Below are positions 1,933 to 54,846 of a stretch of DNA of 64,000 nucleotides, piece after piece. The translations under genes and the position numbers were made by a program. The notes beneath the pieces were generated by a model. The model was not told where the DNA came from, did not search any database, and worked only from the letters and a program-made list of their open reading frames with translations. This stretch comes from a candidate division WOR-3 bacterium (lineage in GTDB: Bacteria; Hydrothermota; Tepidihabitantia; SM23-42), in NCBI GenBank assembly GCA_011052815.1, contig DRIG01000085.1, forward strand, positions 1,110-65,109, written 5' to 3'. Every line of letters starts with the position of its first letter. Position 1 is the stretch's first letter.

Positions 1933-1953
1933 ATATAGAATTAAGGAGGAAAG

Positions 1954-5095: not shown

Positions 5096-5102
5096 GTATT
5101 GC

Positions 5103-5130: not shown

Positions 5131-5137
5131 AACTACC

Positions 5138-14505: not shown

Positions 14506-14517
14506 GAGGAGGTCAAG

Positions 14518-15495: not shown

Positions 15496-15498
15496 GTC

Positions 15499-16122: not shown

Positions 16123-16159
16123 CATGAGCAGCAGGTTCATTATAATCAAGGAGTAAATT

Positions 16160-22751: not shown

Positions 22752-24836
22752 ATGCAAAATTTGATAGTCTTGCTTTTATTGGCTAATCCCTGGAATTGGA
22801 CATTCGTCGGCCCGAGAGGCGGTGAATTTTTCTGGGCACTCAGCCATCCTGATGCAAACAATTTCGCCGCCGCTCTTTCAATGGGTGATGTGTGGCGTAC
22901 GACCGACGGCGGAGTGAACTGGGAACTGTCTTTTGAAAACAGTCTGCCGGTCGCCGGAATGTTTTCTTCGCCGAATGCCGGCATAATCGTTGATTACACC
23001 GGTGAGGTATGGGTGACTCTTGACGCCGGAGTGAACTGGACGAGTGTATTGACGACCAATCATTTCCACGCAGCGAGTTTCGACGTCATCGACACGGTGA
23101 TTTATCTCGCCGACAGCATTCCTCCCAGACTCTGGCGCAGTACAAATTCCGGTTTGACCTGGCAGGTTATTACTGTTTTTGATTCATTATATAGTGTTGA
23201 CCAAATCGCACATATCCCCGGTTCACCCAGTACTTACTGGCTTGTAGGCCATACTCAGGATAATGACACTCTGGCATATATTTACTTTTCCGGAACCTCT
23301 TCTTTCGTTGATACGATAGTCGCCGGAGAAGTCGATGATTTTCAGGAGAACCCTGCTGATATCTGGCATACACTCATCGCAACGGATCACGGAATATATC
23401 AGGCAACTTCTGGAACAGGTCCCTGGGTGCAGCTGGCAGAGCCTTTTGCCTATGGACTGTACCAGCCGATAGATATTGAATTTACCGGAGACGATACCAT
23501 CGTCGTCTCAAGTATGTTCAATCCCGGTATATTCAGGGGTGTGAGGATCGCCGGTGTCTGGATCTTTACCCAGACCGAAAACCGGGAAGGCTGCGGCTAT
23601 ATGAATTTCGGCGGCGCGACCACACTCTACTGCGGATCCTTAGGAAGTGGTGTTTTTAAATCGACTGATGATGGGAATTCCTGGACTATTCAGGACGGTC
23701 TTTATGGACATTTACTTTTAAGCGCCGGTGCCGTGAGCGAGATTATAGATTCCACTTTTTACTTCATCGGATTCGGAGGAAAACCGTTCAAGACCACAGA
23801 TTGGGGGACGACCTGGACACCGCTTTCCCACAATTTTCTTATATACGGTTCTGCCATTGAAGTCGCTCCGACCAACCCCAATTTTCTCATTGTTTCCGCA
23901 ATGGACATCGAGACGGTCGGCAGCCCGCCGATGACGATATATCGTTCAACAGACGGCGGCACCTCGTGGTCACCGGTCGATTCAACTTATGCCGCGGCGG
24001 ATTTTCTTATTACAAGTAATCCTGATATAATTATGGGAATCACGGATACAGTTGTGATTCGTTCCACATCAGGCGGTAATGGCTTTTCACCGGTTTTGAC
24101 GGCTGCAAACAACTTTTATAATCTTACAGGAAGAGATACGGTCTTTGTTGCTTCCCGAGACTCGACATATGTCAGTTATGATCAGGGAGCGACCTGGTCC
24201 TTCCTTGTTGATCGCGGCGGTACGTTGACCTATGATAGTATAAGAGATATACTCTATATTGTTGCGGAACAGGGTTTCTACACTTTTGATGTAAATACCG
24301 GCACACTTGACAGCCTGTCCTATAACTGTCTCACCGCTTCGGTATCACCGAACGGCAATCTCTATTTCTTATTTGTCAGTGATACTCTACGCATCGCAAG
24401 GTCTTTCGACGGCGGCAATACAATAGAAGAAGAAGTTTTCCCGATACCATTCTCCCTTAGTGGAGGAATCAAAGCCGGTGATGACGGTGTTTTCTGCTAC
24501 CAGGGGATCAGAGGTCTGTGGGTGAGCAATGATATTACTTCAGGCGTTGCTGAATCGAAAGAGGAGGTTTGCGCCGGTACCCTGACGTTTGCTCCGACAA
24601 TAATCAAAAAGACACAGAACGGGAAACTGCGGTTGACGCTCAATACAAACCAGCGGGTGGAGCTGAATATTGTTGATCTCACAGGTAGAAAGATAGAAGA
24701 ACTCTACAATGGCAGACTCGAAGCCGGGACCCACGAATTCAATCTTTCCGCGGAAAAGCTTGCGAACGGCGTCTATTTTATCCTATATGAAACCGCTCAG
24801 AACAGAGCTACAAGAAAATTTCTTGTGATTAAATAA
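22752..24836 (+). CDS. Secreted BNR/Asp-box (sortilin-like) repeat protein with a T9SS C-terminal sorting domain
   Basis: At least 7 SxDxGxTW motifs (TTDGGVNW, TLDAGVNW, STNSGLTW, STDDGNSW, TTDWGTTW, STDGGTSW, DQGATW). C-terminal ...GVYFILYETAQNRATRKFLVIK. GGAGG Shine-Dalgarno. Confidence 0.7.
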   Translation: MQNLIVLLLLANPWNWTFVGPRGGEFFWALSHPDANNFAAALSMGDVWRTTDGGVNWELSFENSLPVAGMFSSPNAGIIVDYTGEVWVTLDAGVNWTSVLTTNHFHAASFDVIDTVIYLADSIPPRLWRSTNSGLTWQVITVFDSLYSVDQIAHIPGSPSTYWLVGHTQDNDTLAYIYFSGTSSFVDTIVAGEVDDFQENPADIWHTLIATDHGIYQATSGTGPWVQLAEPFAYGLYQPIDIEFTGDDTIVVSSMFNPGIFRGVRIAGVWIFTQTENREGCGYMNFGGATTLYCGSLGSGVFKSTDDGNSWTIQDGLYGHLLLSAGAVSEIIDSTFYFIGFGGKPFKTTDWGTTWTPLSHNFLIYGSAIEVAPTNPNFLIVSAMDIETVGSPPMTIYRSTDGGTSWSPVDSTYAAADFLITSNPDIIMGITDTVVIRSTSGGNGFSPVLTAANNFYNLTGRDTVFVASRDSTYVSYDQGATWSFLVDRGGTLTYDSIRDILYIVAEQGFYTFDVNTGTLDSLSYNCLTASVSPNGNLYFLFVSDTLRIARSFDGGNTIEEEVFPIPFSLSGGIKAGDDGVFCYQGIRGLWVSNDITSGVAESKEEVCAGTLTFAPTIIKKTQNGKLRLTLNTNQRVELNIVDLTGRKIEELYNGRLEAGTHEFNLSAEKLANGVYFILYETAQNRATRKFLVIK

Positions 24837-29816: not shown

Positions 29817-31214
29817 ATGTTTTTTCTTATTCCCGTCGGTAGTGAAGAAGGTGTAAGAAGACTGCCCTATCTCACGATCGGTCTGATCGCCTTCAACACT
29901 CTGATCTATTTTATAACAAGTATGGTGCTCAATAATCAGGTGCACCGGTTGAACCAGATAAATCAGCAGCTTTTTGATATTGAATCAAAATATATGTACC
30001 GTATCATCGAAGAAGATCCGGAAATGCTGCAGCACGGCACAATTGATCAACTGCGTGAAAAATTCGCCGATGACGGGATTATACCGCTTGAGAGCGAAGA
30101 CTATACACGCTGGCATTTGTTATACAAAGATTATAAAAGACAGCGGGCTGAACTTGTATTTGAGCGCTGGGGATTTGTTCCGAAGAGATTTGATGTTCTT
30201 AAAATACTTTCATCAATGTTTATTCACGCAAATTTCTTCCACCTGTTATTTAATATGTTGTTTTTATGGCTCGTCGGATGTAATATTGAAGACGATTGGT
30301 CGTGGAAGCTTTTTCTCGGATTGTATATATCCGCCGGTATCGTCGCTTCGTTGATACATACGGCGGCTTTTCCTCACAGTGAGGTGCCTCTTATCGGCGC
30401 TTCGGGCGCCATCGCCGGGGTAATGGGTGCGTTCATGATACGACACTACAAGACAAAGATCAGGTTCGCCTACTTTTTATGGTTCTTTTTAAAACCATAT
30501 TATGGAACATTCTCGATCTATGCGGGTATTGCATTACCCTTCTGGTTCCTGCAGCAGATCATCGGTGCGAGCTGGAGTGTGGAAAGTGGTACAGCATACT
30601 GGGCGCACATCGGCGGTTTTGTATTCGGAACCGGGGTCGGTGCTGCAATGAAATTTTTCGGTCTTGAACAAAAGTATATCGCTCCGATGGTTGAAGAAAG
30701 TTTTGAGAAGTTGAAGGTTTCTCCGAAGATGAAAGAGATCTATAAAAAGATGGACGCAGGTGATACCGCGGGAGCGGTTCCATTGTTACTTACGATATTG
30801 AACGAAGAACCGCAGAATTTTGATGCCCCACTGATGCTCGGCAGGATATATTTTGAAAAAGGACATCTGGACGACGCCGGTCTGATGTATAGCCGGGCAT
30901 TACAATCCATTATTCGGCTTGATGATATAGAACTGTTGATATCGACCTTTGAAGAGATGGAAGAAAAAAAACTGGTTGATAAAATCAACGAAAAACTATT
31001 ATACGAACTCGCCGGATTTTTAGAACGACACAAAAAATACCAGCTGGCGGTCAGGGCATTCGGTTTTTATATCCAGCTCTTTCCTCAAAGTAAAGTAAGA
31101 CCCAAGGCGATCTACCGAACCTATATTCTCTTTAAAGATCGGTTGAATGATCCGAATATGGCGCAACGCGCCTACGCCTTTTTGAAAAAAGAATACCCTG
31201 ACTCTCCTTTTTAA
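29817..31214 (+). CDS. Rhomboid-family intramembrane serine protease with a C-terminal TPR domain
   Basis: Rhomboid GxSG (IGASGAIAGVMGAF) and catalytic His (AHIGGFVFG) within a 6-TM core. The C-terminal 150 aa are TPR-like. Confidence 0.75.
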   Translation: MFFLIPVGSEEGVRRLPYLTIGLIAFNTLIYFITSMVLNNQVHRLNQINQQLFDIESKYMYRIIEEDPEMLQHGTIDQLREKFADDGIIPLESEDYTRWHLLYKDYKRQRAELVFERWGFVPKRFDVLKILSSMFIHANFFHLLFNMLFLWLVGCNIEDDWSWKLFLGLYISAGIVASLIHTAAFPHSEVPLIGASGAIAGVMGAFMIRHYKTKIRFAYFLWFFLKPYYGTFSIYAGIALPFWFLQQIIGASWSVESGTAYWAHIGGFVFGTGVGAAMKFFGLEQKYIAPMVEESFEKLKVSPKMKEIYKKMDAGDTAGAVPLLLTILNEEPQNFDAPLMLGRIYFEKGHLDDAGLMYSRALQSIIRLDDIELLISTFEEMEEKKLVDKINEKLLYELAGFLERHKKYQLAVRAFGFYIQLFPQSKVRPKAIYRTYILFKDRLNDPNMAQRAYAFLKKEYPDSPF

Positions 31215-45605: not shown

Positions 45606-47094
45606 ATGCATTCCCAATTTCAGTGAGGGAAGAGATCAATCAAAACTCGATCAAATTTTAGAAGCGATAAAGAGTGCCGGTGTGGAATTGCTCGATCAGG
45701 AAAAAGACCCTGACCATAATCGGGCGGTTGTAACGTTCGTCGGCACTCCTGAAGCGGCACTCGAGGCAGCGTTCAGAGGTATTAAAAAGGCTTCGGAATT
45801 GATTGATTTGAACAAACACAAAGGTGAACATCCGCGTATGGGTGCGACTGATGTGGTACCGTTTGTTCCGATTAAAAACGTTACAACCCGGGAGTGCATA
45901 GAGCTGGCGAAACGATTGGGTAAGCGGGTTGCCGAGGAGCTCAAGATCCCCGTATACCTTTATGAAGACGCCGCCACCCGGCCCGACCGTAAAAATCTTG
46001 CAAATATCCGCAAAGGTGAATTCGAAGGTTTAAGGGAAGAGATTGAGACGAATCCGGATCGCCGCCCTGACTTTGGTGAACCCAGGATACATCCCACCGC
46101 CGGTGCTACGGTGATCGGTGCACGGTTCCCTCTGATCGCCTTTAATATGAATTTGAACACCTCGGACGTTTCGATCGCCCAGAAGATCGCCAAGGCGATC
46201 AGATTCGGAAGCGGTGGTTACAGATATGTGAAGTCACTCGGTTTTATGCTTAAAGAGGAGAATCGCGCCCAGATTTCCTGTAATATGACCAATTATACGA
46301 AGACCCCTCTCTATCGGGTATTCGAGACCGCCAAACGTGAAGCAGAGAGATACGGCACTTCAATCAAAGAGTCAGAGATTGTCGGACTTGTACCTGAAAA
46401 GGCTTTGATCGATACCGCGATATATTATCTGCAGCTTGATCGCTTCAGCGAAGACCAGATCCTTGAATATAAGCTCCACGGTAAAGGAACCAAGCAATCG
46501 ATAATGGATTTTTTGCATGTCCTTGCGCTTGCAAAACCGACACCGGGCGGTGGAAGCGTCGCCGCGCTCCAGGCTGCGCTCGGGACCGCACTGCTGTCCA
46601 TGGTTACCGGCATTACCGTAAACAAAACCAAAGACAATGAATTAAAGGATTTTCACGGTTTCTTGAAGTTGAGTGTCTATGAGTTTTACCGCTTCATTGA
46701 CAGAGACAAGGAAGCCTTTGATAAAGTGCTTGAGGCATTCAGGTTGCCGGAATCGACTGATTCCGAGAAGCAGGAAAAAGAGGTTGCGGTTCAGGATGCC
46801 TATAAACACGCGGCTCAGGTGCCTTTTGAAGTCTGCAAAAAGATACTCTTTATCCATCCCTATGCCAGGATTCTCGCTGAAAAAGGATTAAAGAATGCAA
46901 TTTCAGATGTAGGGGTGGCGCTCTATTCACTCCACAGTGCTTTCCTCTCCGCCCGTCTCAATGTTTTAATCAATCTCAATTCGATCACTGATAAAGAATT
47001 CACTGAGAGCATCAAGACCGAACTTGATTCTTTGAAAAAACAGGAGGAAAATTCCTGCGGGGAAATTGAAAATATCTTCTTGACAAAGTTATGA
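45589..47094 (+). CDS. ftcD: Bifunctional glutamate formimidoyltransferase / formimidoyl-tetrahydrofolate cyclodeaminase (FtcD-like)
   Basis: N-terminal MEKIVECIPNFSEGRD (formiminotransferase). C-terminal ...KPTPGGGSVAALQAALGTALLSMV (FTCD_C cyclodeaminase). About 500 aa total. Overlaps the hutI 3' end by 17 nt. Confidence 0.75.
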   Translation: MEKIVECIPNFSEGRDQSKLDQILEAIKSAGVELLDQEKDPDHNRAVVTFVGTPEAALEAAFRGIKKASELIDLNKHKGEHPRMGATDVVPFVPIKNVTTRECIELAKRLGKRVAEELKIPVYLYEDAATRPDRKNLANIRKGEFEGLREEIETNPDRRPDFGEPRIHPTAGATVIGARFPLIAFNMNLNTSDVSIAQKIAKAIRFGSGGYRYVKSLGFMLKEENRAQISCNMTNYTKTPLYRVFETAKREAERYGTSIKESEIVGLVPEKALIDTAIYYLQLDRFSEDQILEYKLHGKGTKQSIMDFLHVLALAKPTPGGGSVAALQAALGTALLSMVTGITVNKTKDNELKDFHGFLKLSVYEFYRFIDRDKEAFDKVLEAFRLPESTDSEKQEKEVAVQDAYKHAAQVPFEVCKKILFIHPYARILAEKGLKNAISDVGVALYSLHSAFLSARLNVLINLNSITDKEFTESIKTELDSLKKQEENSCGEIENIFLTKL

Positions 47095-47107
47095 AAAAGG
47101 TTATAAT
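47080..47107 (+). promoter_or_regulatory. Sigma70-type promoter TTGACA-N16-TATAAT inside the 3' end of ftcD, driving the TPR/ATPase module
   Basis: cttgacaaagttatgaaaaaggttataatttcagaggtaggttaaaATG (Shine-Dalgarno GAGGTAGG). Confidence 0.5.
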
Positions 47108-47124
47108 TTCAGAGGTAGGTTAAA

Positions 47125-49077
47125 ATGGAAATGGAACTTTTAGAAAAAAGCAGGGAGTATATACGGGAAGGCCAGATGGAGAAGGCTCAAATTATTCTAC
47201 GCAGAATTCTCAGTGAAAATCCCAACGAAGCAAAGGCGTTAGAAATATCGGGCGATCTCGCTCTCAAGCAGGGCAGAATCAATGAGGCGATTCAGCGTTA
47301 TGACAACGCCAGCAATAAATATACCAATGACAATCGGTATGCCGAAGCGATAATCTGTCTGGAAAAGATTAAGATGCTCGACAAAACAAACGAAGAGGTC
47401 TTTTCCCGTCTCGCCGATCTCTATAGATTCTACGGTTTACCGAACAAAGCGGTTACCACGATCCTTGATTTGTGTGGCTGGGCGATTGAAGAAAAGAAGG
47501 ATGCTGTTTTCGTTTCTGCTCTGCGCAAGATAGTTGAACTCCAACCTAAAAATCTTGAGCTGAGGTTCTCTTTTGCGAAGATTTTACTTTCCATTGAACG
47601 GACACAGGAAGCAGAGGATGAGTTGAAGAAGATAAAATCTCTTGCAGAAGAAGCCGGAAAGAGCGAACTGGTTGAAGAAGTGGCTAAATTACTTCCCCAG
47701 ACCGATGGAGGAGAAGAACTTGATCCGAAGAGCCGTATTGAACTTGGCAATCTGTTGTACGAAATCGGTTCAAAGGACGAGGCGCTCGTTGAATTCAACA
47801 AAGCGGTGAGTGATCTGCTGGAGAGCGGTGAGACTGAAGACGCCCTTAATGTCCTTAATCGAATCGTGGAGATCGATCCCAATAACAAAGAGGCGATTAA
47901 CAAAATAAAAGAGTTGACCGGCGAATCTGTCGTTGAGGAACCTGAACAAAAGGAAGAGGAAGAGACCTCTGAAGCAGCGACCGAAGAGGAGATTGTCGCT
48001 GAGGCACCTTCAGAAACACCCGAGGAGGTGGTCGAAGAGTCTGTTCCTGAGGCAGAGGTAGAGCAGGCTCCTGAGGCGGGTGAATCAGAAGCGCCTCCAG
48101 AAGAAAAAACAGAAGAAGCGGCTGAAGAACCTTCTGCAGAGGCAGAAGAACCGACCGGAGAAGCGATGGAAATGTTTCAAGACCTCGGTCAGGATATCGA
48201 AGGTTTTGTTCCAGCTACTGACTCTTCAGAGACCGCGGTTAAAGAAGAAGTGGCACCGGAAACAGAGACAGAGGAGAAACCGGATGATGAGATCTCGAAG
48301 TTAGAGGGGCAGATTGCAGATATTGAATTTCTTCTCAAAGAGACAGAGACAATCGCCAAGCCGAAGTTCGAGATTGCAAAGGAATTCGATGATTTCAGAA
48401 ACAGGATTGTATGGCAGGATGAAGATTTGAACAAGAAACTGAAACTTGCCGAGACGGCGTTCAATAATGAGCTGTATGAAACCGCACTGGCGTATATTCA
48501 GGATATTAACAGTAATAAAGAAACCTGGCCTCTCTCTTTAGAAATAACCGGCAGGTGCCTGATAAAGCTGGGGCGCTATAATGAAGCCAAGAAGAGCCTG
48601 GCGGGATTTTTACTCATCGATGAAATTTCCGAAGAGGACAAGATGGAATTGCGTTATCTGCTCGCTTCCGCCTATGAAGGATTGGGTGATTTTGATAATG
48701 CAATGAGGGAGATTGAGCGGATATTGAGTATTAATCCGAATTACAAAGACGTAAAAGAAATCTATGCACTTATGGGCGGAAAGGAATTCGAAGTACCTGA
48801 AAAAACGGTTGAAAAGGTTGTTGAGCAAGAACCCGCGGTCAGGGAAGAGATTCCGCAACCTGCACCGGAACCACAGACACCACCGACCGAGCCGACGGCA
48901 CCCCGAATTACCGAACCGGCGCCTCCCGAAGAGAACTATCCGACGATCATTGAAGAAATTCCTCAATATCAAGAACCGATCACTCAACCGCCTCTCTCGG
49001 AAAAACCTCAGAGGAAATTAAAAGAGGAGATACCTGATATTGAAGAACCAAAGGGTGAGAATATTGCATTTCTCTAA
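47125..49077 (+). CDS. TPR-repeat protein with a long acidic (Glu-rich) linker and a Pro-rich C-terminus, MshN/PrsT-like partner of an ExeA-like ATPase (copy 1)
   Basis: TPR-like helical repeats in the N- and C-terminal thirds. Central ...EEPEQKEEEETSEAATEEEIVAEAPSETPEE... Start is 14 nt after the promoter leader. Confidence 0.6.
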   Translation: MEMELLEKSREYIREGQMEKAQIILRRILSENPNEAKALEISGDLALKQGRINEAIQRYDNASNKYTNDNRYAEAIICLEKIKMLDKTNEEVFSRLADLYRFYGLPNKAVTTILDLCGWAIEEKKDAVFVSALRKIVELQPKNLELRFSFAKILLSIERTQEAEDELKKIKSLAEEAGKSELVEEVAKLLPQTDGGEELDPKSRIELGNLLYEIGSKDEALVEFNKAVSDLLESGETEDALNVLNRIVEIDPNNKEAINKIKELTGESVVEEPEQKEEEETSEAATEEEIVAEAPSETPEEVVEESVPEAEVEQAPEAGESEAPPEEKTEEAAEEPSAEAEEPTGEAMEMFQDLGQDIEGFVPATDSSETAVKEEVAPETETEEKPDDEISKLEGQIADIEFLLKETETIAKPKFEIAKEFDDFRNRIVWQDEDLNKKLKLAETAFNNELYETALAYIQDINSNKETWPLSLEITGRCLIKLGRYNEAKKSLAGFLLIDEISEEDKMELRYLLASAYEGLGDFDNAMREIERILSINPNYKDVKEIYALMGGKEFEVPEKTVEKVVEQEPAVREEIPQPAPEPQTPPTEPTAPRITEPAPPEENYPTIIEEIPQYQEPITQPPLSEKPQRKLKEEIPDIEEPKGENIAFL

Positions 49078-49090
49078 AATAGGAGGATAA

Positions 49091-49912
49091 GTGGGATATC
49101 AGGAATTTTACGGGCTAAAATTTGAACCATTTGCTAATCATCCTGATCCAAAATTTTATTTTAATTCCCCTCAGCACGCTCTGGCACGTGAGTATTTGAT
49201 TCATGCTGCTCGTGGCACAAGGGGATTGGCTGTTCTTTTGGGTGAAATAGGAACAGGTAAGACGACGTTGTCGCGTAAGATTTTAAATGAATTATATACG
49301 CTGGGTAATTACCAGGTCGGTTTGATCGTCTTGACCCATTCGGATTTTGCACCGGGCTGGCTGTTTACCAGAATAGCGAATTTGATCGGGTTGAGGGATT
49401 TCGGCAGCTCGACGACCGAGATAATAAACCGGATATCGCAGAGGCTCCATGAGATTTATCGAAGGAACGAGAAGACGGTGATTATAATCGATGAGGCGAA
49501 TAAACTCCGCAGTCAGGAGATACTGGAAGAGATTCGCGGGTTATTGAATCTCGAGATTGCTGATACACGGTTGATTTCTTTTATCCTCAGCGGTCTTCCT
49601 GAGCTGGAACATTTTTTAGCATCAAACCGGGCACTCTATCAGCGTATTGCAGTCAAGGTTAAGTTGAAACCGATGGGCAGTGATACGATCCGGGCATATA
49701 TCAACCACCGATTGAAGATCGCCGGTGCAACCCGGGAACTGTTTTCACCACGGGCGGTTGATTTGATCTGCCGTTATTCAGACGGCAGGCCGCGGCTTGT
49801 GAACATCACCAGTGATAATGCCCTGTTAGAGGGTTATGTACAGAGAAAACAGACCATTGATGAGTCGATTATCGAAAGAGTGGTTACAAATTTGGGTTTA
49901 AAATTTGAATAA
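49091..49912 (+). CDS. ExeA/GspA/MshM-like AAA ATPase, ATPase domain only, about 273 aa (copy 1)
   Basis: Walker A LLGEIGTGKTTLSRKIL. Walker B VIIIDEAN. ...LSGLPELEHFL... typical of the ExeA-like family (also the TIGR03015 PEP-CTERM-locus ATPase). Confidence 0.7.
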   Translation: MGYQEFYGLKFEPFANHPDPKFYFNSPQHALAREYLIHAARGTRGLAVLLGEIGTGKTTLSRKILNELYTLGNYQVGLIVLTHSDFAPGWLFTRIANLIGLRDFGSSTTEIINRISQRLHEIYRRNEKTVIIIDEANKLRSQEILEEIRGLLNLEIADTRLISFILSGLPELEHFLASNRALYQRIAVKVKLKPMGSDTIRAYINHRLKIAGATRELFSPRAVDLICRYSDGRPRLVNITSDNALLEGYVQRKQTIDESIIERVVTNLGLKFE

Positions 49913-51885
49913 TGTCAGGACTTGGTGAAGCAAAAAGAAAAGTTGCTGAATTTGAAGCAAAGGGTGATGTAAAGAAAGCCATAGAAGAATTAGAAAAGGC
50001 TATTCAGGATTTCCCCAAAGAGGGTTCATTATTTAACAAACTCGGTGATTTATATATCAAGGTTAACCGTAAAGAAGACGCCCTCGATATATATGAAAGA
50101 GGCGCCAGGGTCTTTAAAGAAGAAACATACTTTCCCAATGCCATCGCTCTCTGCAAGAAGATATTGAGATTGGATAAAGAGAGAACAGAGGTATACGGGC
50201 TGCTTGGTGAACTTCATAAAGAGCTGGATCAACGGGGAGAGGCAGCCAATTACTTCCTGGAATATGCAGAGAGAAAGATGAAAGCCAATGATGTGGAATC
50301 CGCCCTTGAAACCTATAATATGATTAAAGAGCTGGTTCCCAACAATCCCAAAATTCTTGAGACGATATCCGCCATCTATGAAAAGGTCGGAAAGAAAGAA
50401 GAAGGAGCTGAATTTTTAAAAGAGGCGCATGAGCTGGAGACCAAGCAGGAGAAACTCAGAGAATCCCTGGTCGCCGAGGAAAAGATAGAGAAGAAGGTCG
50501 AGAAAAAAGAAGAAGAGAAAGAGAAAAAGGTTGAACCGGAGGAAGAAGAGGCGGCAGAGCCCGAAGAGCCGGTAAAAGAAGAGGAGCCGGTGAAAGAAGA
50601 GCCGGTAAAAGAGGAGCCGGTGAAAAAAGAAGAGGTGATCGAAAAACCGGAACCGGCTGAAGAGAAGGTCGAAGAAGCGGTTGAGGTGGAAAAAGAAGTG
50701 GAGGAGGAAGACGTCGGAGAGTCGGTTGAAGTGAAGGCGGAGGAAGAAGTAAAAGAAGAATCAGAAGAAGCTGAGCCTTCACTGGAAGACCTGGTTTCTC
50801 CTGAGGTAGCGGAATTACTGAAAGACGATCGTGAACCGGAATCTGAGCCGGAAAAAGAAGAAGAGGTCGCGGTGGAAGAAGAACCGCCCGAAGCCCTTTC
50901 TGATATTGATAAAACCATTGAACTCGGTGAACTTTATCTCAATCTGGGGTCAGAAGAAGAAGCCGTGGACTGTTTTCGAAACGCCGCTGAAGAGGCATGG
51001 GAGCAGAAGGATTATGATACTGCCCTGACTCTTAATAAGAAGATCGCCGATCTACGGCCGTTTGATTTAAAATCGCGGCAGCATATGGTCGAGATCGCCC
51101 AGATAAAAAAAGATAAAGAGCTTGAAATAAGTTCTCTGCTTGACCTGGCTGAGTCTCTGATGCGGCGTGAGGCGAAGAGTGAAGCCCGTGCCGTATACAA
51201 GAAAGTTTTGAAACTCGATCCGGACAACACTACTGCAAAAGAGATGTACGCCGCGTTCGAACAGCCCAAGGATTTCATTGATCTCGGTGAGGTGTTGCGG
51301 GCTGAAATGGCGGATGAGAAGAAATCCGAGAGCTTGCAGAGTATTGAAGGGCTTGTATCGCAGTTCAGGCGGGAGGTTTTTGAGTCGATCGGCGAAGGTG
51401 ATTTCCGTTCACGCTATGATCTCGGGGTTGCATATAAAGGAATGGGTTTGTATCAGGAAGCGATTGAAGAGTTCGAGATCGCCAGTAAAGACGAGGAGCT
51501 TAAACTCAAGGCGCTTGAGATGATCGGTTCCTGTTTTCTGGAGAGGGGTAAGATCGATGAGGCGATCGGAACGCTTCAGGAGGCGTTGAAGGTGACGGGT
51601 CGTCCAACAAAGGAATACTTCGGGATCTATTTCATGCTCGGTAATTGTTACGAAGATAAGGGTGATATGAAGACCGCACTCAAACATTATATGGCGGCGT
51701 TCAAGATTGATAAAACGGTTCCTGAATTGACCAAGAAGATCAATGAATTGAAGAAAAAATATCTTGCCGTGATGAAAAAGGCGGAGAAAAAACCTGCTCC
51801 TGGAAAGATTCAGAAGAAAACAGCCGCGAAGGCTGTTAAGACCAAAAAAGTTGCGGCAAAGAAGTCAAAGATAACATATTTATAA
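49912..51885 (+). CDS. TPR-repeat protein with an E/K-rich tandem-repeat linker (EEPVKE units) and a histone-H1-like Lys/Ala-rich C-terminal tail (copy 2)
   Basis: Start ATG overlaps the TAA of the upstream ATPase (TAATG). DNA-level tandem repeats gagccggt(a/g)aaagaagag at about 50570-50640. C-terminal KKPAPGKIQKKTAAKAVKTKKVAAKKSK. Confidence 0.6.
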   Translation: MSGLGEAKRKVAEFEAKGDVKKAIEELEKAIQDFPKEGSLFNKLGDLYIKVNRKEDALDIYERGARVFKEETYFPNAIALCKKILRLDKERTEVYGLLGELHKELDQRGEAANYFLEYAERKMKANDVESALETYNMIKELVPNNPKILETISAIYEKVGKKEEGAEFLKEAHELETKQEKLRESLVAEEKIEKKVEKKEEEKEKKVEPEEEEAAEPEEPVKEEEPVKEEPVKEEPVKKEEVIEKPEPAEEKVEEAVEVEKEVEEEDVGESVEVKAEEEVKEESEEAEPSLEDLVSPEVAELLKDDREPESEPEKEEEVAVEEEPPEALSDIDKTIELGELYLNLGSEEEAVDCFRNAAEEAWEQKDYDTALTLNKKIADLRPFDLKSRQHMVEIAQIKKDKELEISSLLDLAESLMRREAKSEARAVYKKVLKLDPDNTTAKEMYAAFEQPKDFIDLGEVLRAEMADEKKSESLQSIEGLVSQFRREVFESIGEGDFRSRYDLGVAYKGMGLYQEAIEEFEIASKDEELKLKALEMIGSCFLERGKIDEAIGTLQEALKVTGRPTKEYFGIYFMLGNCYEDKGDMKTALKHYMAAFKIDKTVPELTKKINELKKKYLAVMKKAEKKPAPGKIQKKTAAKAVKTKKVAAKKSKITYL

Positions 51886-51891
51886 AAAACT

Positions 51892-52716
51892 ATGGGATAC
51901 GAAAGTTTTTATAAATTAAAAGAACACCCCTTTAGTTTCACTACAGATGAAAAATTTTATTATGATTCCCCGCAACACTCAAAGGCGTTGATAAAATTGT
52001 CGCATGCGGTTGAGACCGAAAAGGGATTGGCGCTTCTTATCGGTGATATCGGAACGGGTAAGACGACGTTGTCCCGTCGTCTTCTGGACCAGCTCATCGA
52101 CAAAGATGTCGAGGCGACGCTTCTTGTTATAATCCATTCGGAAATCACTTCCTTGTGGTTTTTAAAGAAGATAGCACTTATGCTCGAAACACCGGTGGAT
52201 TCCGAAAACAAGATCGACATAATAACTGCTGTATACCACCGGTTGCTCGATTTGACGGGTAAGAACAAAAAGGTCGTGATTCTCGTCGACGAAGCGAACA
52301 TGCTTCAAAAGAAAGCGATAATGGAAGAGATCAGAGGGTTGCTTAATCTGGAATCAGAACGCGGCAAGCTTTTGAACTTTATCCTGTTCGGCCTACCTGA
52401 GATGGAGGATTATTTGAAACTTGATCCTCCGTTGTATCAAAGGATTGCTGTCCGCTGTGTTCTCGACGCCCTCGACGAAAATGCGACCTATAATTACATC
52501 GTTCATCGACTGCGCGTCGCCGGATGCACAAAACCTTTGTTTACAAAAGAGGCCCTGAAGAAAATATTCGTTTATTCAAAAGGCATTCCCCGTACAATCA
52601 ATGCGATATGTGATAATGCTTTATTGGAAGGTTTTCTTCTGAAGAAACAGATAGTCGATCAAAAAATAATCGATGATGTATCTCAAGATCTGGGACTTGC
52701 TGCACAAGAAAGCTGA
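51892..52716 (+). CDS. ExeA/GspA/MshM-like AAA ATPase (copy 2)
   Basis: Walker A LLIGDIGTGKTTLSRRLL. Walker B VVILVDEAN. Collinear with copy 1. Confidence 0.7.
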   Translation: MGYESFYKLKEHPFSFTTDEKFYYDSPQHSKALIKLSHAVETEKGLALLIGDIGTGKTTLSRRLLDQLIDKDVEATLLVIIHSEITSLWFLKKIALMLETPVDSENKIDIITAVYHRLLDLTGKNKKVVILVDEANMLQKKAIMEEIRGLLNLESERGKLLNFILFGLPEMEDYLKLDPPLYQRIAVRCVLDALDENATYNYIVHRLRVAGCTKPLFTKEALKKIFVYSKGIPRTINAICDNALLEGFLLKKQIVDQKIIDDVSQDLGLAAQES

Positions 52717-52727: not shown

Positions 52728-53585
52728 TTGGAAAAGCCGAATTTTTCCCTACAAAAGAATTGTTATGCTGATCTTCATATTCATTCAATATATTCAGACG
52801 GCTCTCTGACACCTTTCGAAATCATAAATATCTGTAAACAGCTGGAGTTGAAGGTCATTTCGATTACGGACCACGATACTGTATCCGGACTCGGTGAAGT
52901 ATTCACCCTCGCCCGGGGGGACGTGGAGATTATCCCGGCGGTGGAGATGAGCTCGAATATCGGATATCTGGATATCCATATTCTGGGATATTATATTGAC
53001 TATAAAAATGGAGAGCTCCTTGCATACTTAGAGGATTTCAAAAAACACCGGATCGAGAGGGTGAAGAGGATCATAAAGAAACTCTCGGATGACGGTATTC
53101 AACTTGAATTTGAACAGATTAAAGCCGTCGCCCAGAACTGTTCCCTGGGCAGACCGCACATCGCCGAGGTGCTTGTGGAGAACGGCTATGTCAGGTCAAT
53201 AAACGAAGCATTTTCACGCTATCTGGGCTACGGCCTGCCCTATTATGAACCTAAAAAGGATGTCCATCCGAAAGAGGTTATCAATAGAATAAAGAGAAGT
53301 CACGGTATTCCGGTGATTGCACATCCCGGTACGATAAATGATGAGCAGATTATTTATTCACTGATTATGCACGGCGCGCAGGGAATAGAGGTATGGCATC
53401 CTGAACACAATCAAAAGTGGCAGCAGCAGCTTTATGAGATTGCTTTGAAGAACGGATTGTTGATGACCGGTGGTTCTGATTGCCACGGCAGACGCGGAGG
53501 TTTTCAGATCGGTTGCATCGGATGCAGTGAGGATGATGTTCTTATGATGAAGAGACATCATCAGGAGATCTGTAAGAGCGGCTGA
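52728..53585 (+). CDS. PHP-domain (polymerase/histidinol-phosphatase-like) metal-dependent phosphoesterase
   Basis: ADLHIHSIYSDGS motif at the N-terminus. TTG start. Later His/Asp-rich motifs (...IAHPG..., GGSDCHG). Confidence 0.7.
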   Translation: MEKPNFSLQKNCYADLHIHSIYSDGSLTPFEIINICKQLELKVISITDHDTVSGLGEVFTLARGDVEIIPAVEMSSNIGYLDIHILGYYIDYKNGELLAYLEDFKKHRIERVKRIIKKLSDDGIQLEFEQIKAVAQNCSLGRPHIAEVLVENGYVRSINEAFSRYLGYGLPYYEPKKDVHPKEVINRIKRSHGIPVIAHPGTINDEQIIYSLIMHGAQGIEVWHPEHNQKWQQQLYEIALKNGLLMTGGSDCHGRRGGFQIGCIGCSEDDVLMMKRHHQEICKSG

Positions 53586-53627: not shown

Positions 53628-54041
53628 ATGAATATAGAAGAGATAAAAGAGATTTTACCGCATCGGCCGCCGTTTCTGTTCGTCGATGAAGTTATTGAAA
53701 TCGCGGATAAGAGGATAGTTGCAAAAAGACACATCCGCCCTGATGAATTCTTCTTTGCAGGCCATTTCCCTCAGGAACCGATAATGCCCGGGGTCCTGAT
53801 TGTCGAGGCACTCGCTCAGACAGCCGGGGTTATGCTTCTGCGGAAATATAAAGGGGCGATTCCTCTTTTTATGGGGATTGATAAGGCGAGGTTCCGGAGA
53901 ATCGTCAAACCCGGTGATACACTCCTTATGGAAGCCGAGGTGATCCATGATCGAGGGAAGGTCGTTAAGATTTCAGGCAGGGCAAAGGTCGGTGACGAGA
54001 CCGTGTGTGAGGCGGTTATCCTTGCGGGTATAAAGACTTAA
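53628..54041 (+). CDS. fabZ: 3-hydroxyacyl-[acyl-carrier-protein] dehydratase
   Basis: N-terminal IKEILPHRPPFLFVDEV. Hot-dog fold with active His (GHFP). Confidence 0.85.
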   Translation: MNIEEIKEILPHRPPFLFVDEVIEIADKRIVAKRHIRPDEFFFAGHFPQEPIMPGVLIVEALAQTAGVMLLRKYKGAIPLFMGIDKARFRRIVKPGDTLLMEAEVIHDRGKVVKISGRAKVGDETVCEAVILAGIKT

Positions 54042-54072
54042 TTTCTATTCCGTTATTCAATTTATAAATAAT

Positions 54073-54846
54073 ATGAACAACTCCCTGATCAGTAAAAAAG
54101 CCCGAATCGGACGGTCTGTGGTGTTCGGTCCTTATGTGCTTATCGAGGATGATGTCGAGATAGGCGACCGCAATATAATCGGAAGTCATGTTGTGATCAG
54201 AAACGGAACCGTGATCGGCGACGACAACAGGATTCATTCCGGAGTTCAGATCGGCGTCGATCCACAGGATTATCACTTTAAAGGGGAATATTCCCGTTGT
54301 ATCATCGGAAACAATAATATAATCAGAGAATACGCCACGATTTCACGAGCAACGGGAGAGAACAGCGAGACCGTGATCGGCGACAATAATTTTATTATGA
54401 CCTATGTTCATATCGCCCACAATATCACAATCGGCAGTAACACCGTCATTTCGAGCGGCTCCCAGCTTGGCGGTTATGTTTCTATTGCTGACTTTGCGAA
54501 TATCGGCGGGCTTGCAGGGATCCACCAATTCTGTCGGGTCGGCAGATATGCGATGCTCGGTGCGAAGTCTTATTTGAATAAAGATCTGCCGCCTTATCTC
54601 CTGGCACGCGGAAATCGGGCGAAGATCTATGGAGTGAATACAAGGGGATTGAAGTTCCATTCGTTTTCAGCGGCTGACATCGAGACGATAAAAGAGCTCT
54701 TTAATTTTTTGTATAATTCGGCGAAGAACATCTCTGAGTGCGTTGAGCTATTAAAGAAGAAAAAAAACCAGGATCAATTCACCCTGGAAATGGTGAAATT
54801 CATTGAATCCTCAGAACGAGGCATATTGCTTAAAATATCTGATTAA
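54073..54846 (+). CDS. lpxA: Acyl-ACP--UDP-N-acetylglucosamine O-acyltransferase
   Basis: Left-handed beta-helix hexapeptide repeats plus the C-terminal LpxA helical domain. Conserved fabZ-lpxA linkage. Confidence 0.8.
   Translation: MNNSLISKKARIGRSVVFGPYVLIEDDVEIGDRNIIGSHVVIRNGTVIGDDNRIHSGVQIGVDPQDYHFKGEYSRCIIGNNNIIREYATISRATGENSETVIGDNNFIMTYVHIAHNITIGSNTVISSGSQLGGYVSIADFANIGGLAGIHQFCRVGRYAMLGAKSYLNKDLPPYLLARGNRAKIYGVNTRGLKFHSFSAADIETIKELFNFLYNSAKNISECVELLKKKKNQDQFTLEMVKFIESSERGILLKISD

What the first reader, a model, noticed from the sequence alone, without database searches (positions are those of the whole stretch)
47080..52716. Tandemly duplicated two-gene module: TPR protein plus ExeA/MshM-like AAA ATPase, twice, with no secretin or pilus genes nearby
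Four translationally coupled genes run from a canonical promoter at 47080: TPR1 (650 aa), ATPase1 (273 aa), TPR2 (657 aa, whose ATG overlaps the ATPase1 stop as TAATG), ATPase2 (274 aa). The ATPases are the short, ATPase-domain-only form of the ExeA/GspA family, as in MshM or the TIGR03015 PEP-CTERM-locus ATPase. Their TPR partners resemble MshN/PrsT-type proteins but carry long poly-acidic linkers (EEPVKE tandem repeats) and, in copy 2, a histone-H1-like KAAKK tail. In described systems such ATPase/TPR pairs accompany MSHA pili, type II secretion secretins or exosortase loci. Here none of those is present in more than 10 kb on either side. The flanking genes are hutI-ftcD and a PHP phosphoesterase, fabZ and lpxA. 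A duplicated ATPase+TPR pair of this kind may represent an uncharacterised envelope or assembly system. With T9SS cargo genes abundant around it, a T9SS- or outer-membrane-related role is one speculation.
Basis: partly seen in the sequence, partly recalled or inferred. Interest (0 to 1): 0.6.

Follow-up and report, generated by a model that had tools for sequence, protein, structure and literature searches.

The report
Duplicated SgmX-like TPR plus ExeA-like ATPase
Four co-transcribed genes of a candidate-division WOR-3 bacterium encode two old copies of a cytoplasmic TPR scaffold plus a small AAA+ ATPase; this gene pair is conserved across many bacterial phyla, and its only studied member is the Myxococcus pilus activator SgmX with its still-uncharacterised neighbour ATPase.

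Summary
Four + strand genes run behind a perfect sigma-70 promoter at 47080: TPR1 47125-49077, ATPase1 49091-49912, TPR2 49912-51885 and ATPase2 51892-52716. The ATPases are ExeA-family proteins reduced to the ATPase domain. They are 38% identical to the Aeromonas ExeA ATPase domain and match TIGR03015 over its full length but below its cutoff.

The TPR proteins are not MshN/PrsT-type envelope proteins. They are soluble, cytoplasmic members of the SgmX family. In about 78 of 80 loci from at least 9 phyla, a TPR gene sits directly upstream of an orthologous ATPase. In M. xanthus that TPR gene is sgmX and the ATPase is MXAN_5765.

TPR2 keeps SgmX's N-terminal block (inside the pilus-activating domain) and its C-terminal block (the MglA-binding region). 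Every partner TPR (about 90 of 90) ends in the same peptide, [KR]-x-[IV]-[STG]-[YF]-[LIVM]-COOH. Only 4 of about 950 neighbouring ORFs do.

The doubled layout followed by a PHP gene is shared by WOR-3/TA06 and Cloacimonadota, so the duplication is old. A T9SS role is not supported. The ATPase's function is unknown, and MXAN_5765 mutants show no motility or developmental defect. My proposed mechanism is inferred, not shown: the scaffold's C-terminal hook engages an AAA+ switch.

The parts
47080..47107 (+). Sigma-70-type promoter TTGACA-16-TATAAT (12/12), overlapping the end of ftcD
47125..49077 (+). TPR1 (650 aa). Diverged SgmX-family paralogue: N-terminal TPR block, acidic disordered linker (about aa 251-400), C-terminal TPR block, Pro-rich linker, C-terminal hook ...KGENIAFL
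49051..49074 (+). C-terminal hook of TPR1 (PKGENIAFL-COOH); the downstream AGGAGG lies after the stop, not in these codons
49091..49912 (+). ATP1 (273 aa, GTG start). ExeA-family AAA+ ATPase, ATPase domain only; member of the paralogue clade found only in WOR-3/TA06/Cloacimonadota
49912..51885 (+). TPR2 (657 aa). SgmX-family scaffold, predicted cytoplasmic; its ATG overlaps the ATP1 stop (TAATG)
49945..50487 (+). TPR2 N block (aa 12-192), homologous to SgmX aa 11-191 (inside the T4aP-activating domain, TPR1-8): 30% identity, E 7e-19. The AF2 model is a confident helical solenoid over aa 1-205
50530..50886 (+). TPR2 poly-acidic disordered linker (aa 207-325; 42-46% D+E; pLDDT below 50). Contains the EEPVKE-type DNA tandem repeat at 50543-50634
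50902..51261 (+). TPR2 middle TPR domain (aa 331-450; pLDDT above 90)
51340..51750 (+). TPR2 C block (aa 477-613), homologous to SgmX aa 861-1000, which lies in the region deleted in mimB (TPR12-14, the MglA-GTP-binding M-domain): 31% identity, E 4e-16
51790..51858 (+). TPR2 basic, disordered linker (aa 627-649; K/A-rich, H1-like)
51859..51882 (+). C-terminal hook of TPR2 (KKSKITYL-COOH); invariant in WOR-3 orthologues and matching the family-wide motif [KR]-x-[IV]-[STG]-[YF]-[LIVM]-COOH
51892..52716 (+). ATP2 (274 aa). ExeA-family AAA+ ATPase, the orthologue of M. xanthus MXAN_5765 (48-49% identity). Walker A GDIGTGKTT, Walker B VDEA and conserved R184/R234. AF2 pLDDT 92.6
52728..53585 (+). 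PHP-domain phosphoesterase (285 aa; TrpH/YciV-like, nearest to pAp phosphatase and RNase RNM but below their cutoffs). Always follows ATP2 in WOR-3/TA06/Cloacimonadota
53628..54846 (+). fabZ (53628-54041) and lpxA (54073-54846). Probably co-transcribed, since there is no + strand terminator between 47.1 and 54.8 kb. This linkage is specific to WOR-3

Best explanation
The locus holds two ancient paralogous copies of one conserved, cytoplasmic two-protein module.

Each copy has two parts:
(i) An SgmX-family TPR scaffold. It has an N-terminal TPR block homologous to the pilus-activating domain of SgmX, a long acidic disordered linker, and a C-terminal TPR block homologous to the MglA-binding region of SgmX. 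A flexible basic or Pro-rich linker follows, ending in an invariant C-terminal peptide.
(ii) A translationally coupled ExeA-family AAA+ ATPase that consists of the ATPase domain only.

Shown here:
- Family assignment of both proteins.
- Strict adjacency of the TPR and ATPase genes across at least 9 phyla.
- Orthology of TPR2-ATP2 with M. xanthus sgmX-MXAN_5765.
- Conservation of both end blocks and of the C-terminal peptide.
- Intact nucleotide-binding motifs.
- Predicted cytoplasmic location.

Inferred:
- The two proteins form a complex.
- The ATPase is a nucleotide-dependent switch or oligomer of the ORC/TnsC/MuB type.
- It is engaged by the scaffold's flexibly tethered C-terminal hook, as TnsB and MuA engage TnsC and MuB.
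- Through this it controls the assembly state or placement of the scaffold.
- The scaffold in turn recruits client proteins of an envelope machine from the cytoplasmic side. The only documented client pathway is the type IVa pilus extension machinery in Myxococcus.

In WOR-3 and Cloacimonadota the module was duplicated before these lineages split. It is expressed as one operon with a PHP phosphoesterase.
For: Family and orthology:
- ATP2 is 73-92% identical across WOR-3 and 48-60% identical in Cloacimonadota, Nitrospirota, Methylomirabilota, FCPU426, Firestonebacteria, Bdellovibrionota and Myxococcota.
- A 430-1230 aa TPR ORF lies immediately upstream on the same strand in nearly all of 80 loci. 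L058 and L071 are the exceptions.
- In M. xanthus that ORF is SgmX itself (NF052243, 2047 bits against a cutoff of 1800).
- TPR2 aligns colinearly with SgmX at both ends (E 7e-19 and 4e-16). Both blocks are positionally conserved in partners from all phyla.

The C-terminal hook:
- It is present in about 90 of 90 partners, against 4 of about 950 other ORFs.
- It is also present in 41 of the 150 best global representatives of the C block.
- Codon usage and the position of the SD sequence rule out an RBS artefact.

Location and ATPase fold:
- No TM segment or signal peptide.
- Walker A, Walker B and the conserved arginines are invariant.
- The AF2 model of ATP2 has pLDDT 92.6. Its nearest solved folds are ORC/Cdc6, TnsC and MuB (TM 0.64-0.73). 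TnsC is also the best PDB profile hit (E 8e-7).

Precedent for the hook:
- TnsB's C-terminal 15-residue hook sits on a non-conserved flexible linker and decorates TnsC filaments. The MuA C-terminus stimulates MuB ATPase activity (PMC9371665).

Coupling and age of the duplication:
- Tight translational coupling.
- The doubled layout plus PHP is conserved between WOR-3/TA06 and Cloacimonadota.
- ATP1-type copies form their own clade.
Against: - No experiment or complex prediction links the hook to the ATPase. The AF2 monomer model of TPR2 leaves the tail undocked (pLDDT below 50), and a fused-chain prediction could not be run.
- In M. xanthus, inactivation of MXAN_5765 has no S-motility phenotype (PMC7668184) and no developmental phenotype in a transposon pool.
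- C-terminally tagged SgmX is active, and the mimB truncation lacking the C block and tail still activates pili. So the ATPase and hook are dispensable for the one known function of the family.
- Outside Myxococcota there is no genomic linkage to pilus genes or mglA within +-10 kb.
- I could not determine whether WOR-3 has type IV pili or MglA.
- TPR2 scores only 101 bits on the SgmX model (cutoff 1800).
Confidence: 0.55

Rival explanations
1. The pairs are MshM/MshN- or ExeA/ExeB-type accessory factors of a secretin-based type IV filament machine (MSHA pilus, T2SS or T4aP) encoded elsewhere in the genome. They would help assemble or tune that machine.
For: - The ExeA-family ATPase domain is 38% identical to Aeromonas ExeA.
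- MshM (ExeA-like) and MshN (TPR) are adjacent in Vibrio msh operons. Their deletion, like that of MXAN_5765, does not abolish piliation (PMC4624765).
- A PilQ-type secretin lies 3-4 kb upstream of the pair in 8 Myxococcota loci.
- SgmX controls T4aP extension.
Against: - The ATPases lack ExeA's TM segment, C39-like domain and peptidoglycan-binding domain.
- There is no ExeB/GspB gene.
- The TPR proteins have no TM segment or signal peptide.
- No secretin or T2SSE-type ATPase lies within +-10 kb in any non-Myxococcota locus or anywhere in the 64 kb window.
- The pair sits among housekeeping genes that vary from lineage to lineage.
Confidence: 0.15
2. The module regulates outer-membrane or lipid biogenesis from the cytoplasm (lipid A synthesis, TamB/AsmA-like lipid transport, Omp85 insertion).
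For: - Putative operon partners in Myxococcota and Bdellovibrio are a TamB-like DUF490 protein and an Omp85/POTRA protein (PMC3983030).
- In WOR-3 the partners are fabZ-lpxA, with PAP2 in one genome.
- Scattered lipid genes lie downstream elsewhere: PAP2 in L021/L022, a CDP-alcohol phosphatidyltransferase in L029 and a patatin in L077.
Against: - Downstream genes are heterogeneous in most lineages: RadA, ThiD, CoaE, a His-phosphatase, FtsEX, a methyltransferase and an S49 peptidase.
- fabZ-lpxA linkage is confined to WOR-3.
- MXAN_5764 and MXAN_5765 mutants have no reported phenotype.
- There is no biochemical link.
Confidence: 0.13
3. The ATPase is a DNA- or nucleoid-bound AAA+ switch like ORC, TnsC or MuB. 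The TPR scaffold, through its basic H1-like tail, tethers something to the chromosome (a chromosome-organisation or segregation role).
For: - The nearest solved folds and profile hits are the DNA-polymerising TnsC and MuB and ORC/Cdc6.
- A lysine-rich linker precedes the hook in WOR-3, Cloacimonadota and Nitrospirota.
- smc-ftsY (Cloacimonadota, one Nitrospirae), radA (27 loci) and nrdR are neighbours.
Against: - Fold similarity is generic for the initiator clade (12-17% identity).
- The ATPase has no winged-helix or other DNA-binding appendage; it is 274 aa, all AAA+ core plus lid.
- The linker is Pro/Ala-rich, not basic, in Myxococcota.
- The neighbours are unrelated housekeeping genes.
- SgmX is polar, not nucleoid-associated.
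Confidence: 0.08
4. A T9SS-associated assembly or regulatory system.
For: At least seven Por_Secre_tail cargo genes lie in the window. The duplication is restricted to FCB-affiliated lineages.
Against: - The pair is equally conserved in Nitrospirota, Myxococcota, Bdellovibrionota and Methylomirabilota, outside the reported range of T9SS.
- No T9SS core gene is adjacent.
- The weak PorW/PorE hits are generic TPR matches far below cutoff.
Confidence: 0.03
5. A mobile-element (Mu-B/TniB/TnsC-type) or anti-phage defence AAA_22 gene pair.
For: ExeA-like ATPases at about 30% identity sit next to IS481/DDE transposases on plasmids. There are weak PADLOC hits (mad8, TRIP13; E about 1e-5). An AbiE toxin-antitoxin pair lies at the window start.
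Against: - No transposase, integrase or repeats flank the pair.
- GC content is unremarkable.
- Synteny is vertical, phylum-wide and set among housekeeping genes.
- Conservation is very high (ATP2 is above 73% identical across WOR-3).
- The PADLOC hits cover only the P-loop.
Confidence: 0.02

Closest known systems
M. xanthus SgmX (MXAN_5766) and its downstream ATPase MXAN_5765
   Same: - Same gene order and tight coupling (TPR then ATPase).
- ATP2 is 48-49% and ATP1 41% identical to the MXAN_5765 orthologue.
- TPR2 shares SgmX's N-terminal block and C-terminal block in register, plus the C-terminal hook (...ARKVGYL against ...KSKITYL).
- All are cytoplasmic.
   Different: - TPR2 is 657 aa against 1060 aa. 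It has a poly-acidic linker in place of SgmX's central TPRs, so no recognisable S-domain (TPR9-11, FrzS binding).
- It scores 101 bits against a cutoff of 1800 on NF052243.
- There are two paralogous pairs here instead of one.
- The operon continues with PHP-fabZ-lpxA instead of TamB-like and Omp85 genes.
- No pil cluster is nearby.
- Whether WOR-3 has MglA, FrzS or T4aP is unknown.
Aeromonas/Vibrio ExeA-ExeB (GspA-GspB)
   Same: The AAA_22 ATPase domain is homologous, with the conserved N-terminal Y..F..L.E.PF motif: 38% identity over aa 3-248.
   Different: ExeA carries a TM segment, a C39-like domain and a peptidoglycan-binding domain, and pairs with ExeB (T2SSB). ATP1 and ATP2 have none of these and pair with TPR proteins. 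E. coli K-12 GspA is only about 20% identical.
Vibrio MshM-MshN (MSHA pilus accessory ATPase and TPR protein)
   Same: An ExeA-like ATPase-only protein lies next to a TPR protein. Both are dispensable for making pili (PMC4624765), paralleling MXAN_5765.
   Different: mshM-mshN lie inside the msh secretory operon between the secretin and the extension ATPase, in ATPase-then-TPR order. Here there is no pilus operon. I could not obtain MshM or MshN sequences to compare directly or to check for the hook.
TIGR03015 XrtA/PEP-CTERM-associated ATPase with PrsT (TIGR02917)
   Same: This is the best-scoring curated model for both ATPases, with full-length alignment (E 6e-55 and 2e-57). PrsT is also a TPR protein.
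   Different: Scores are 187 and 195 bits against a cutoff of 324.5. There is no exosortase or PEP-CTERM gene in the window. PrsT is a lipoprotein, and TPR1 and TPR2 match it only as generic TPR (58-75 bits against 312).
TnsC-TnsB and MuB-MuA (AAA+ regulator engaged by the partner's C-terminal peptide)
   Same: These are the nearest solved structures and profile hits for the ATPase. The partner carries a short conserved C-terminal hook on a non-conserved disordered linker (PMC9371665), the same anatomy as the TPR tails.
   Different: Identity is 12-17%. Those systems act on DNA in transposition. No transposase is present here, and the partner is a TPR scaffold. The analogy is mechanistic only and was not tested.
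Bdellovibrio Bd2492 (SgmX1) and Bd2490 (SgmX2)
   Same: These are cytoplasmic TPR proteins related to the SgmX N-terminus, two of them close together in one genome, and part of a polar hub with MglA/RomR.
   Different: Bd2492 is followed directly by tamB/tamA-like genes with no ATPase. Reported similarity covers only the SgmX N-terminus. A Bdellovibrionota MAG does have the canonical TPR(1023 aa)-ATPase pair with the hook (L033).

Membership tests
SgmX family (type IV pili formation protein SgmX, NF052243) | Score at or above the curated cutoff of the equivalog model | tested here: not met
   TPR2 scores 101 bits and TPR1 18 bits against a cutoff of 1800. M. xanthus SgmX scores 2047.
SgmX family (type IV pili formation protein SgmX, NF052243) | N-terminal TPR block homologous to the T4aP-activating domain (TPR1-8) | tested here: met
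   TPR2 aa 12-192 aligns to SgmX aa 11-191 (30% identity, E 7e-19). TPR1 aa 4-169 aligns to SgmX aa 5-170 (E 1e-9). The block is positionally conserved in all phyla.
SgmX family (type IV pili formation protein SgmX, NF052243) | C-terminal TPR block corresponding to the MglA-GTP-binding M-domain (TPR12-14) | tested here: met
   Sequence homology only. TPR2 aa 477-613 aligns to SgmX aa 861-1000 (31% identity, E 4e-16). This region lies beyond G802, which is deleted in mimB.
SgmX family (type IV pili formation protein SgmX, NF052243) | Polar-anchoring S-domain (TPR9-11) that binds FrzS | tested here: inconclusive
   No specific alignment of the TPR2 middle domain (aa 331-450) to the central SgmX TPRs. 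It matched only the SgmX N-terminal repeats weakly.
SgmX family (type IV pili formation protein SgmX, NF052243) | Gene immediately upstream of an MXAN_5765-type ATPase | tested here: met
SgmX family (type IV pili formation protein SgmX, NF052243) | Binds MglA-GTP, localises to the pole, recruits PilB, and is required for T4aP formation | not testable with these tools
   Functional properties taken from PMC7668184, PMC7519303 and PMC9811614. The presence of MglA or T4aP in WOR-3 could not be established.
ExeA/GspA family | AAA_22 ATPase domain with the family's N-terminal motif, alignable to ExeA | tested here: met
   Pfam AAA_22 at E 4e-21 and 4e-19. 38% identity to the Aeromonas ExeA ATPase domain from residue 3.
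ExeA/GspA family | TM segment plus periplasmic C39-like and peptidoglycan-binding domains | tested here: not met
   The proteins are 273 and 274 aa. The maximum 19-residue hydropathy is 1.45 or less, and there are no PF21327 or PF01471 hits, in contrast to the Aeromonas ExeA.
ExeA/GspA family | Adjacent ExeB/GspB and a T2SS secretin it helps assemble | tested here: not met
   No T2SSB or secretin gene in the window or in non-Myxococcota loci.
XrtA/PEP-CTERM system ATPase (TIGR03015) | Score at or above the trusted cutoff, and an exosortase/PEP-CTERM locus context | tested here: not met
   187 and 195 bits against 324.5. No exosortase or EPS locus in the 64 kb window.
MshM/MshN (MSHA pilus) | Located within an msh operon (mshL secretin, mshE ATPase, mshG platform) | tested here: not met
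   No such genes in the window. phmmer with GspD and GspE finds nothing.
MshM/MshN (MSHA pilus) | Direct sequence orthology to MshM and MshN | not tested
   No MshM or MshN sequence was available in the accessible collections.
Transposon AAA+ regulators (MuB / TnsC / TniB) | Adjacent transposase and location within a mobile element | tested here: not met
   No transposase in the flanks and conserved chromosomal synteny. Similarity to TnsC and MuB is fold-level only.
Known anti-phage defence systems (PADLOC) | Significant match to a defence-system protein model | tested here: not met
   Only P-loop-level hits at E about 1e-5 for the ATPases, and none for the TPRs or PHP.

The most novel reading that the evidence does not exclude
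SgmX and MXAN_5765 would be the Myxococcus representatives of an ancient two-component module found across many bacterial phyla. The module is a TPR scaffold with two conserved end domains and an invariant C-terminal hook ([KR]-x-[IV]-[STG]-[YF]-[LIVM]-COOH), plus an ExeA-like AAA+ switch.

Its ancestral, still unknown function would not be pilus activation, because the ATPase, the hook and the C block are all dispensable for that in Myxococcus. The hook would be the handle by which the ATPase assembles or disassembles a cytoplasmic scaffold serving envelope biogenesis or cell polarity.

In WOR-3 and Cloacimonadota the module has become a four-protein, possibly heteromeric, system coupled to a PHP phosphoesterase.
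Probability: 0.3. Interest if true: 0.7.

Novelty: new variant of a known kind. Interest (0 to 1): 0.5.

Why it matters
SgmX is a central regulator of type IV pilus polarity in Myxococcus, but how its activating domain works is unknown. Its neighbour ATPase has been dismissed for lack of a phenotype.

This work shows that the TPR-ATPase pair, both end domains and an invariant C-terminal peptide are conserved from WOR-3 to Myxococcota. That recasts SgmX as one lineage-specific elaboration of a much older module.

It also yields concrete, cheap experiments:
- hook deletions;
- hook-ATPase binding assays;
- MXAN_5765 phenotypes outside motility.

For candidate phyla such as WOR-3 and Cloacimonadota, it gives a first functional handle on four highly conserved genes currently annotated only as 'TPR protein' and 'AAA family/ExeA ATPase'.

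Tried and rejected
1. **Fused-chain complex prediction.** In an ATP2-linker-TPR2 chimera, MAFFT aligned the TPR homologues onto the ATPase part, so it was not submitted.
2. **Cis-docking of the hook.** The AF2 model of TPR2 leaves aa 627-657 disordered (pLDDT below 50), so there is no support for cis-docking.
3. **E. coli K-12 GspA as outgroup.** It is too divergent (about 20% identity, P-loop only). An Aeromonas ExeA replaced it.
5. **Literature on pili in WOR-3.** Nothing usable was found.
6. **SopA as the ATPase.** Rejected, because SopA is MXAN_0371 and unrelated.
7. **PDB sequence search with ATP2 alone.** No hit. The profile search gave only distant TnsC and MuB matches.
8. **PADLOC.** Nothing meaningful.
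9. **A consistent functional theme in downstream genes.** Not found. The genes are heterogeneous, with only an anecdotal lipid/envelope flavour.
10. **RBS artefact as the cause of the hook.** Rejected, because the SD sequence lies after the stop codon or is absent, and the codons differ between high- and low-GC lineages.

Full report
**Observation**

- TPR1, 47125-49077, 650 aa.
- ATP1, 49091-49912, 273 aa, GTG start.
- TPR2, 49912-51885, 657 aa.
- ATP2, 51892-52716, 274 aa.

A 12/12 TTGACA-16-TATAAT promoter lies at 47080-47107. It is the only perfect match in 44-55.2 kb. The genes are tightly coupled:
- 13 nt with AGGAGG between TPR1 and ATP1.
- A TAATG overlap between ATP1 and TPR2.
- 6 nt between TPR2 and ATP2.
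- 11 nt to a PHP gene.

No + strand terminator was found before lpxA ends at 54846. The transcription unit is therefore probably TPR1-ATP1-TPR2-ATP2-PHP-fabZ-lpxA.

ATP1 and ATP2 are 45% identical. TPR1 and TPR2 are only marginally similar but colinear. The acidic linkers, the EEPVKE-type repeat (50543-50634) and the K/A-rich tail are real. Pfam scans of essentially every ORF of the 64 kb window found no secretin, pilus, T2SS or exosortase gene.

**What the proteins are**

Both ATPases are AAA_22 proteins. They align end to end with TIGR03015, but at 187 and 195 bits against a cutoff of 324.5. A canonical Aeromonas ExeA (AAA_22 + C39-like + PG_binding_1, followed by ExeB) is 38% identical to ATP2 across the whole ATPase domain, starting at the N-terminal Y..F..L.E.PF motif. 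So they are ExeA-family proteins reduced to the ATPase domain.

Walker A, Walker B and the conserved arginines are invariant in both copies and in all orthologues. The AF2 model of ATP2 is confident (pLDDT 92.6). Its nearest solved folds are archaeal ORC/Cdc6, TnsC and MuB (TM 0.64-0.73, 12-17% identity). TnsC is also the best PDB profile hit (E 8e-7). No ExeA-family structure has been solved.

None of the four proteins has a TM segment or signal peptide. The AF2 model of TPR2 shows:
- three confident helical-repeat domains (aa 1-205, 331-450 and 478-625);
- a disordered acidic linker (aa 207-325);
- a disordered basic tail (aa 627-657).

**Where else the pair occurs**

ATP2 homologues place the window in candidate division WOR-3/TA06 (73-92% identity). 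They continue at 48-60% identity into other phyla. A scan of one genome per GTDB species returned 80 loci. These came from WOR-3, TA06, Nitrospirota/Thermodesulfovibrionia, Methylomirabilota, FCPU426, Firestonebacteria, Bdellovibrionota and Myxococcota. Contig look-ups added Cloacimonadota: P0091 is 85% identical to the L003 ATPase.

ORF clustering of all loci shows a 430-1230 aa TPR ORF immediately upstream of the ATPase, on the same strand, in nearly every locus. Two related ATPases, in L058 and L071, lack it.

Everything else around the pair varies by lineage:

| Lineage | Genes around the pair |
|---|---|
| Nitrospirota | convergent radA, preceded by a conserved 226-aa unknown ORF |
| Myxococcota | TamB-like and Omp85 genes downstream |
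| FCPU426 / Firestonebacteria | DUF4301, an epimerase, a nucleotidyltransferase |
| Other loci | CoaE, FtsEX, a His-phosphatase and others |

The TPR-ATPase pair is the conserved unit.

**The link to SgmX**

In M. xanthus (L078) the ORF upstream of the ATPase orthologue is SgmX itself (NF052243, 2047 bits against a cutoff of 1800). The ATPase there is 48-49% identical to ATP2 and 41% identical to ATP1. The ATPase is MXAN_5765, and a TamB-like protein follows it.

This synteny was drawn by Milner et al. 2014, who called MXAN_5765 a 'putative Sec system ATPase' (PMC3983030). Mercier et al. 2020 described a putative four-gene operon, MXAN_5766-5763, 'of unknown function'. They reported that inactivating MXAN_5765 or MXAN_5764 does not affect S-motility (PMC7668184). 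A 2026 transposon-pool study found no developmental defect for MXAN_5765-5761. SopA, another SgmX partner, is MXAN_0371 and unrelated.

TPR2 aligns with SgmX in two colinear blocks:
- aa 12-192 to SgmX aa 11-191, at 30% identity and E 7e-19. This lies inside the T4aP-activating domain, TPR1-8.
- aa 477-613 to SgmX aa 861-1000, at 31% identity and E 4e-16. This lies in the region removed by mimB, that is TPR12-14, the MglA-GTP-binding M-domain.

Both blocks are positionally conserved in the partner TPRs of all phyla, around a middle of variable length. TPR1 keeps the same two blocks at lower similarity. TPR2 nevertheless fails the SgmX equivalog cutoff by a wide margin, and it has no recognisable S-domain. 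It is therefore an SgmX-family protein, not 'SgmX'.

**A new feature: the C-terminal hook**

Every partner TPR ends in the same peptide. Examples are KKSKITYL (TPR2), GENIAFL (TPR1), KRKISYI (Cloacimonadota), KDRVSYL (Nitrospirota), KKNIGFI and ARKVGYL (Myxococcota, the latter SgmX).

The pattern [IV]-x-[YF]-[LIVM]-COOH matches all of the roughly 90 partners, but only 4 of about 950 other ORFs in the same loci. Position -4 is K or R in 44 of 50 distinct tails. The peptide is invariant in WOR-3 TPR2 orthologues.

It follows a 30-60 aa low-complexity linker that is basic in WOR-3, Cloacimonadota and Nitrospirota and Pro/Ala-rich in Myxococcota. It is not an RBS artefact. A search of 1.84 billion cluster representatives with the TPR2 C block found the hook in 41 of the best 150 hits. 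A second class of hits ends right after the C block, without linker or hook.

I found no mention of this peptide in the SgmX papers I read.

**Age of the duplication**

The layout amidohydrolase-(ftcD)-TPR-ATP-TPR-ATP-PHP is shared by WOR-3/TA06 (L008-L011, L028 and the window) and by Cloacimonadota (L003, L004, L006, L014). One complete WOR-3 genome shows only the second pair at this locus (L001).

In an NJ tree rooted with Aeromonas ExeA, the first-copy ATPases of all these lineages form one clade. The second copies group with the single-copy orthologues of other phyla (identities). The duplication therefore predates the WOR-3/Cloacimonadota split, and TPR2-ATP2 is the conservative copy.

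The PHP gene is TrpH/YciV-like: about 150 bits on the pAp-phosphatase and RNase RNM models, below their cutoffs. It always follows the second ATPase in these lineages.

**How it probably works**

Shown here:
- a cytoplasmic scaffold with two conserved TPR end modules;
- long disordered linkers and a conserved C-terminal peptide;
- an intact AAA+ ATPase of the initiator/switch clade;
- strict gene adjacency and translational coupling.

Inferred: the two proteins form a complex in which the flexibly tethered hook engages the ATPase. The closest precedent comes from the ATPase's nearest structural relatives. TnsB's C-terminal 15-residue hook, on a non-conserved disordered linker, decorates TnsC filaments, and the MuA C-terminus stimulates MuB ATPase activity (PMC9371665). 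By analogy, the ATPase would set the assembly state or position of the scaffold, and the scaffold's N block would recruit clients.

The only documented client pathway is T4aP extension in Myxococcus. However, the ATPase, the hook (C-terminally tagged SgmX is active) and the C block (mimB) are all dispensable for that function. Outside Myxococcota the pair is not linked to pilus genes or mglA. I therefore rate the identity of the module as well supported and the mechanism as a hypothesis.

The rivals are scored separately:
- a secretin or pilus accessory role of the MshM/MshN type;
- an outer-membrane or lipid role (TamB-like/Omp85 genes, fabZ-lpxA);
- a nucleoid role;
- a T9SS role;
- a mobile-element or defence role.

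The last two are effectively excluded.

**Verdict**

It is a duplicated, diverged variant of the sgmX-MXAN_5765 gene pair.

What is new here:
- the breadth and strictness of the TPR-ATPase pairing;
- the two conserved end blocks;
- the universal C-terminal hook;
- the old WOR-3/Cloacimonadota duplication with a linked PHP gene.

The function of the ATPase, and of the module in WOR-3, remains unknown.

Noticed in passing
window 49051-49074 and 51859-51882; all partner TPRs in L001-L087: Every TPR protein upstream of an ExeA-like ATPase ends in the same C-terminal peptide, [KR]-x-[IV]-[STG]-[YF]-[LIVM]-COOH. M. xanthus SgmX does too (...ARKVGYL). The pattern matches about 90 of 90 partners against 4 of about 950 other ORFs, and is not mentioned in the SgmX papers I read.
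   Followed up: yes
representative proteins P0241-P0389: Among the 150 best global matches to the TPR2 C block, 41 carry the hook. A second class ends right after the block's last helix (...[FY]RDV..R...L..) with no linker or hook. This may be an ATPase-independent sister family.
   Followed up: partly
L042:1037-3121, L078:2-2674 and six other Myxococcota loci: A PilQ-type secretin (AMIN + Secretin domains) lies about 3-4 kb upstream of the sgmX-like gene in all Myxococcota loci, so the pair sits at the edge of the pil cluster there. No other phylum shows this.
   Followed up: yes
L007:4726-5457(-) and 24 other Nitrospirota loci: A conserved protein of about 226 aa with no Pfam match always lies between the ATPase and a convergent radA in Nitrospirota/Thermodesulfovibrionia.
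   Followed up: no
L058, L071; L036:15705-16535: Two related ATPases (L058, L071) have no hook-bearing TPR upstream. L036 (Nitrospiria) carries a second, very divergent ExeA-like ATPase about 5 kb from the canonical pair.
   Followed up: partly
plasmid hits H14, H18, H19, H21, H24: ExeA-like AAA ATPases at about 30% identity to ATP2 sit next to IS481/DDE transposases on Geobacillus, Ruminococcus and Sporosarcina plasmids. This is a transposon-associated branch of the same ATPase family.
   Followed up: no
L089 (NZ_AP026896.1): The PLSDB record 'plasmid pKAM479_3' of Aeromonas caviae is 4.94 Mb and carries exeA-exeB and mutY-like genes. It looks like a chromosome filed as a plasmid, with almost no annotation.
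   Followed up: no
window 30-3072: An AbiEi/AbiEii toxin-antitoxin pair (30-833, 837-1688) and an HTH + M78 (ImmA/IrrE-like) protein (1954-3072) lie in the lowest-GC part of the window (38.7%). This may be a small defence or mobile islet.
   Followed up: no
window 5099-9504: An Rnf-type complex operon (RnfC, RnfD, an FMN-binding RnfG-like protein and two Rnf-Nqr membrane subunits), followed by a nitroreductase (9514-10083).
   Followed up: no
window 22752-24836, 27190-29523, 36111-38654(-), 38695-40971(-), 43381-44292, 58007-59407(-), 59453-61894(-): Seven proteins carry the T9SS C-terminal sorting domain (Por_Secre_tail). They include two C25 (gingipain-like) peptidases, a sortilin/VPS10-like protein, a Golvesin_C protein and an FG-GAP protein.
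   Followed up: partly
window 44406-45605; L003:4483-5814; L006, L014, L028: A hutI-like amidohydrolase is conserved upstream of the doubled module in both WOR-3 (with ftcD in between) and Cloacimonadota (directly adjacent). This is shared synteny of unknown significance.
   Followed up: no
window 13735-16510: Two ORFs without any Pfam match (13735-14505, 14518-15495) precede a DUF4384 + PEGA protein (15499-16122) and a 116-aa unknown ORF.
   Followed up: no
window 29817-31214: A rhomboid protease fused to a C-terminal TPR region (465 aa).
   Followed up: no
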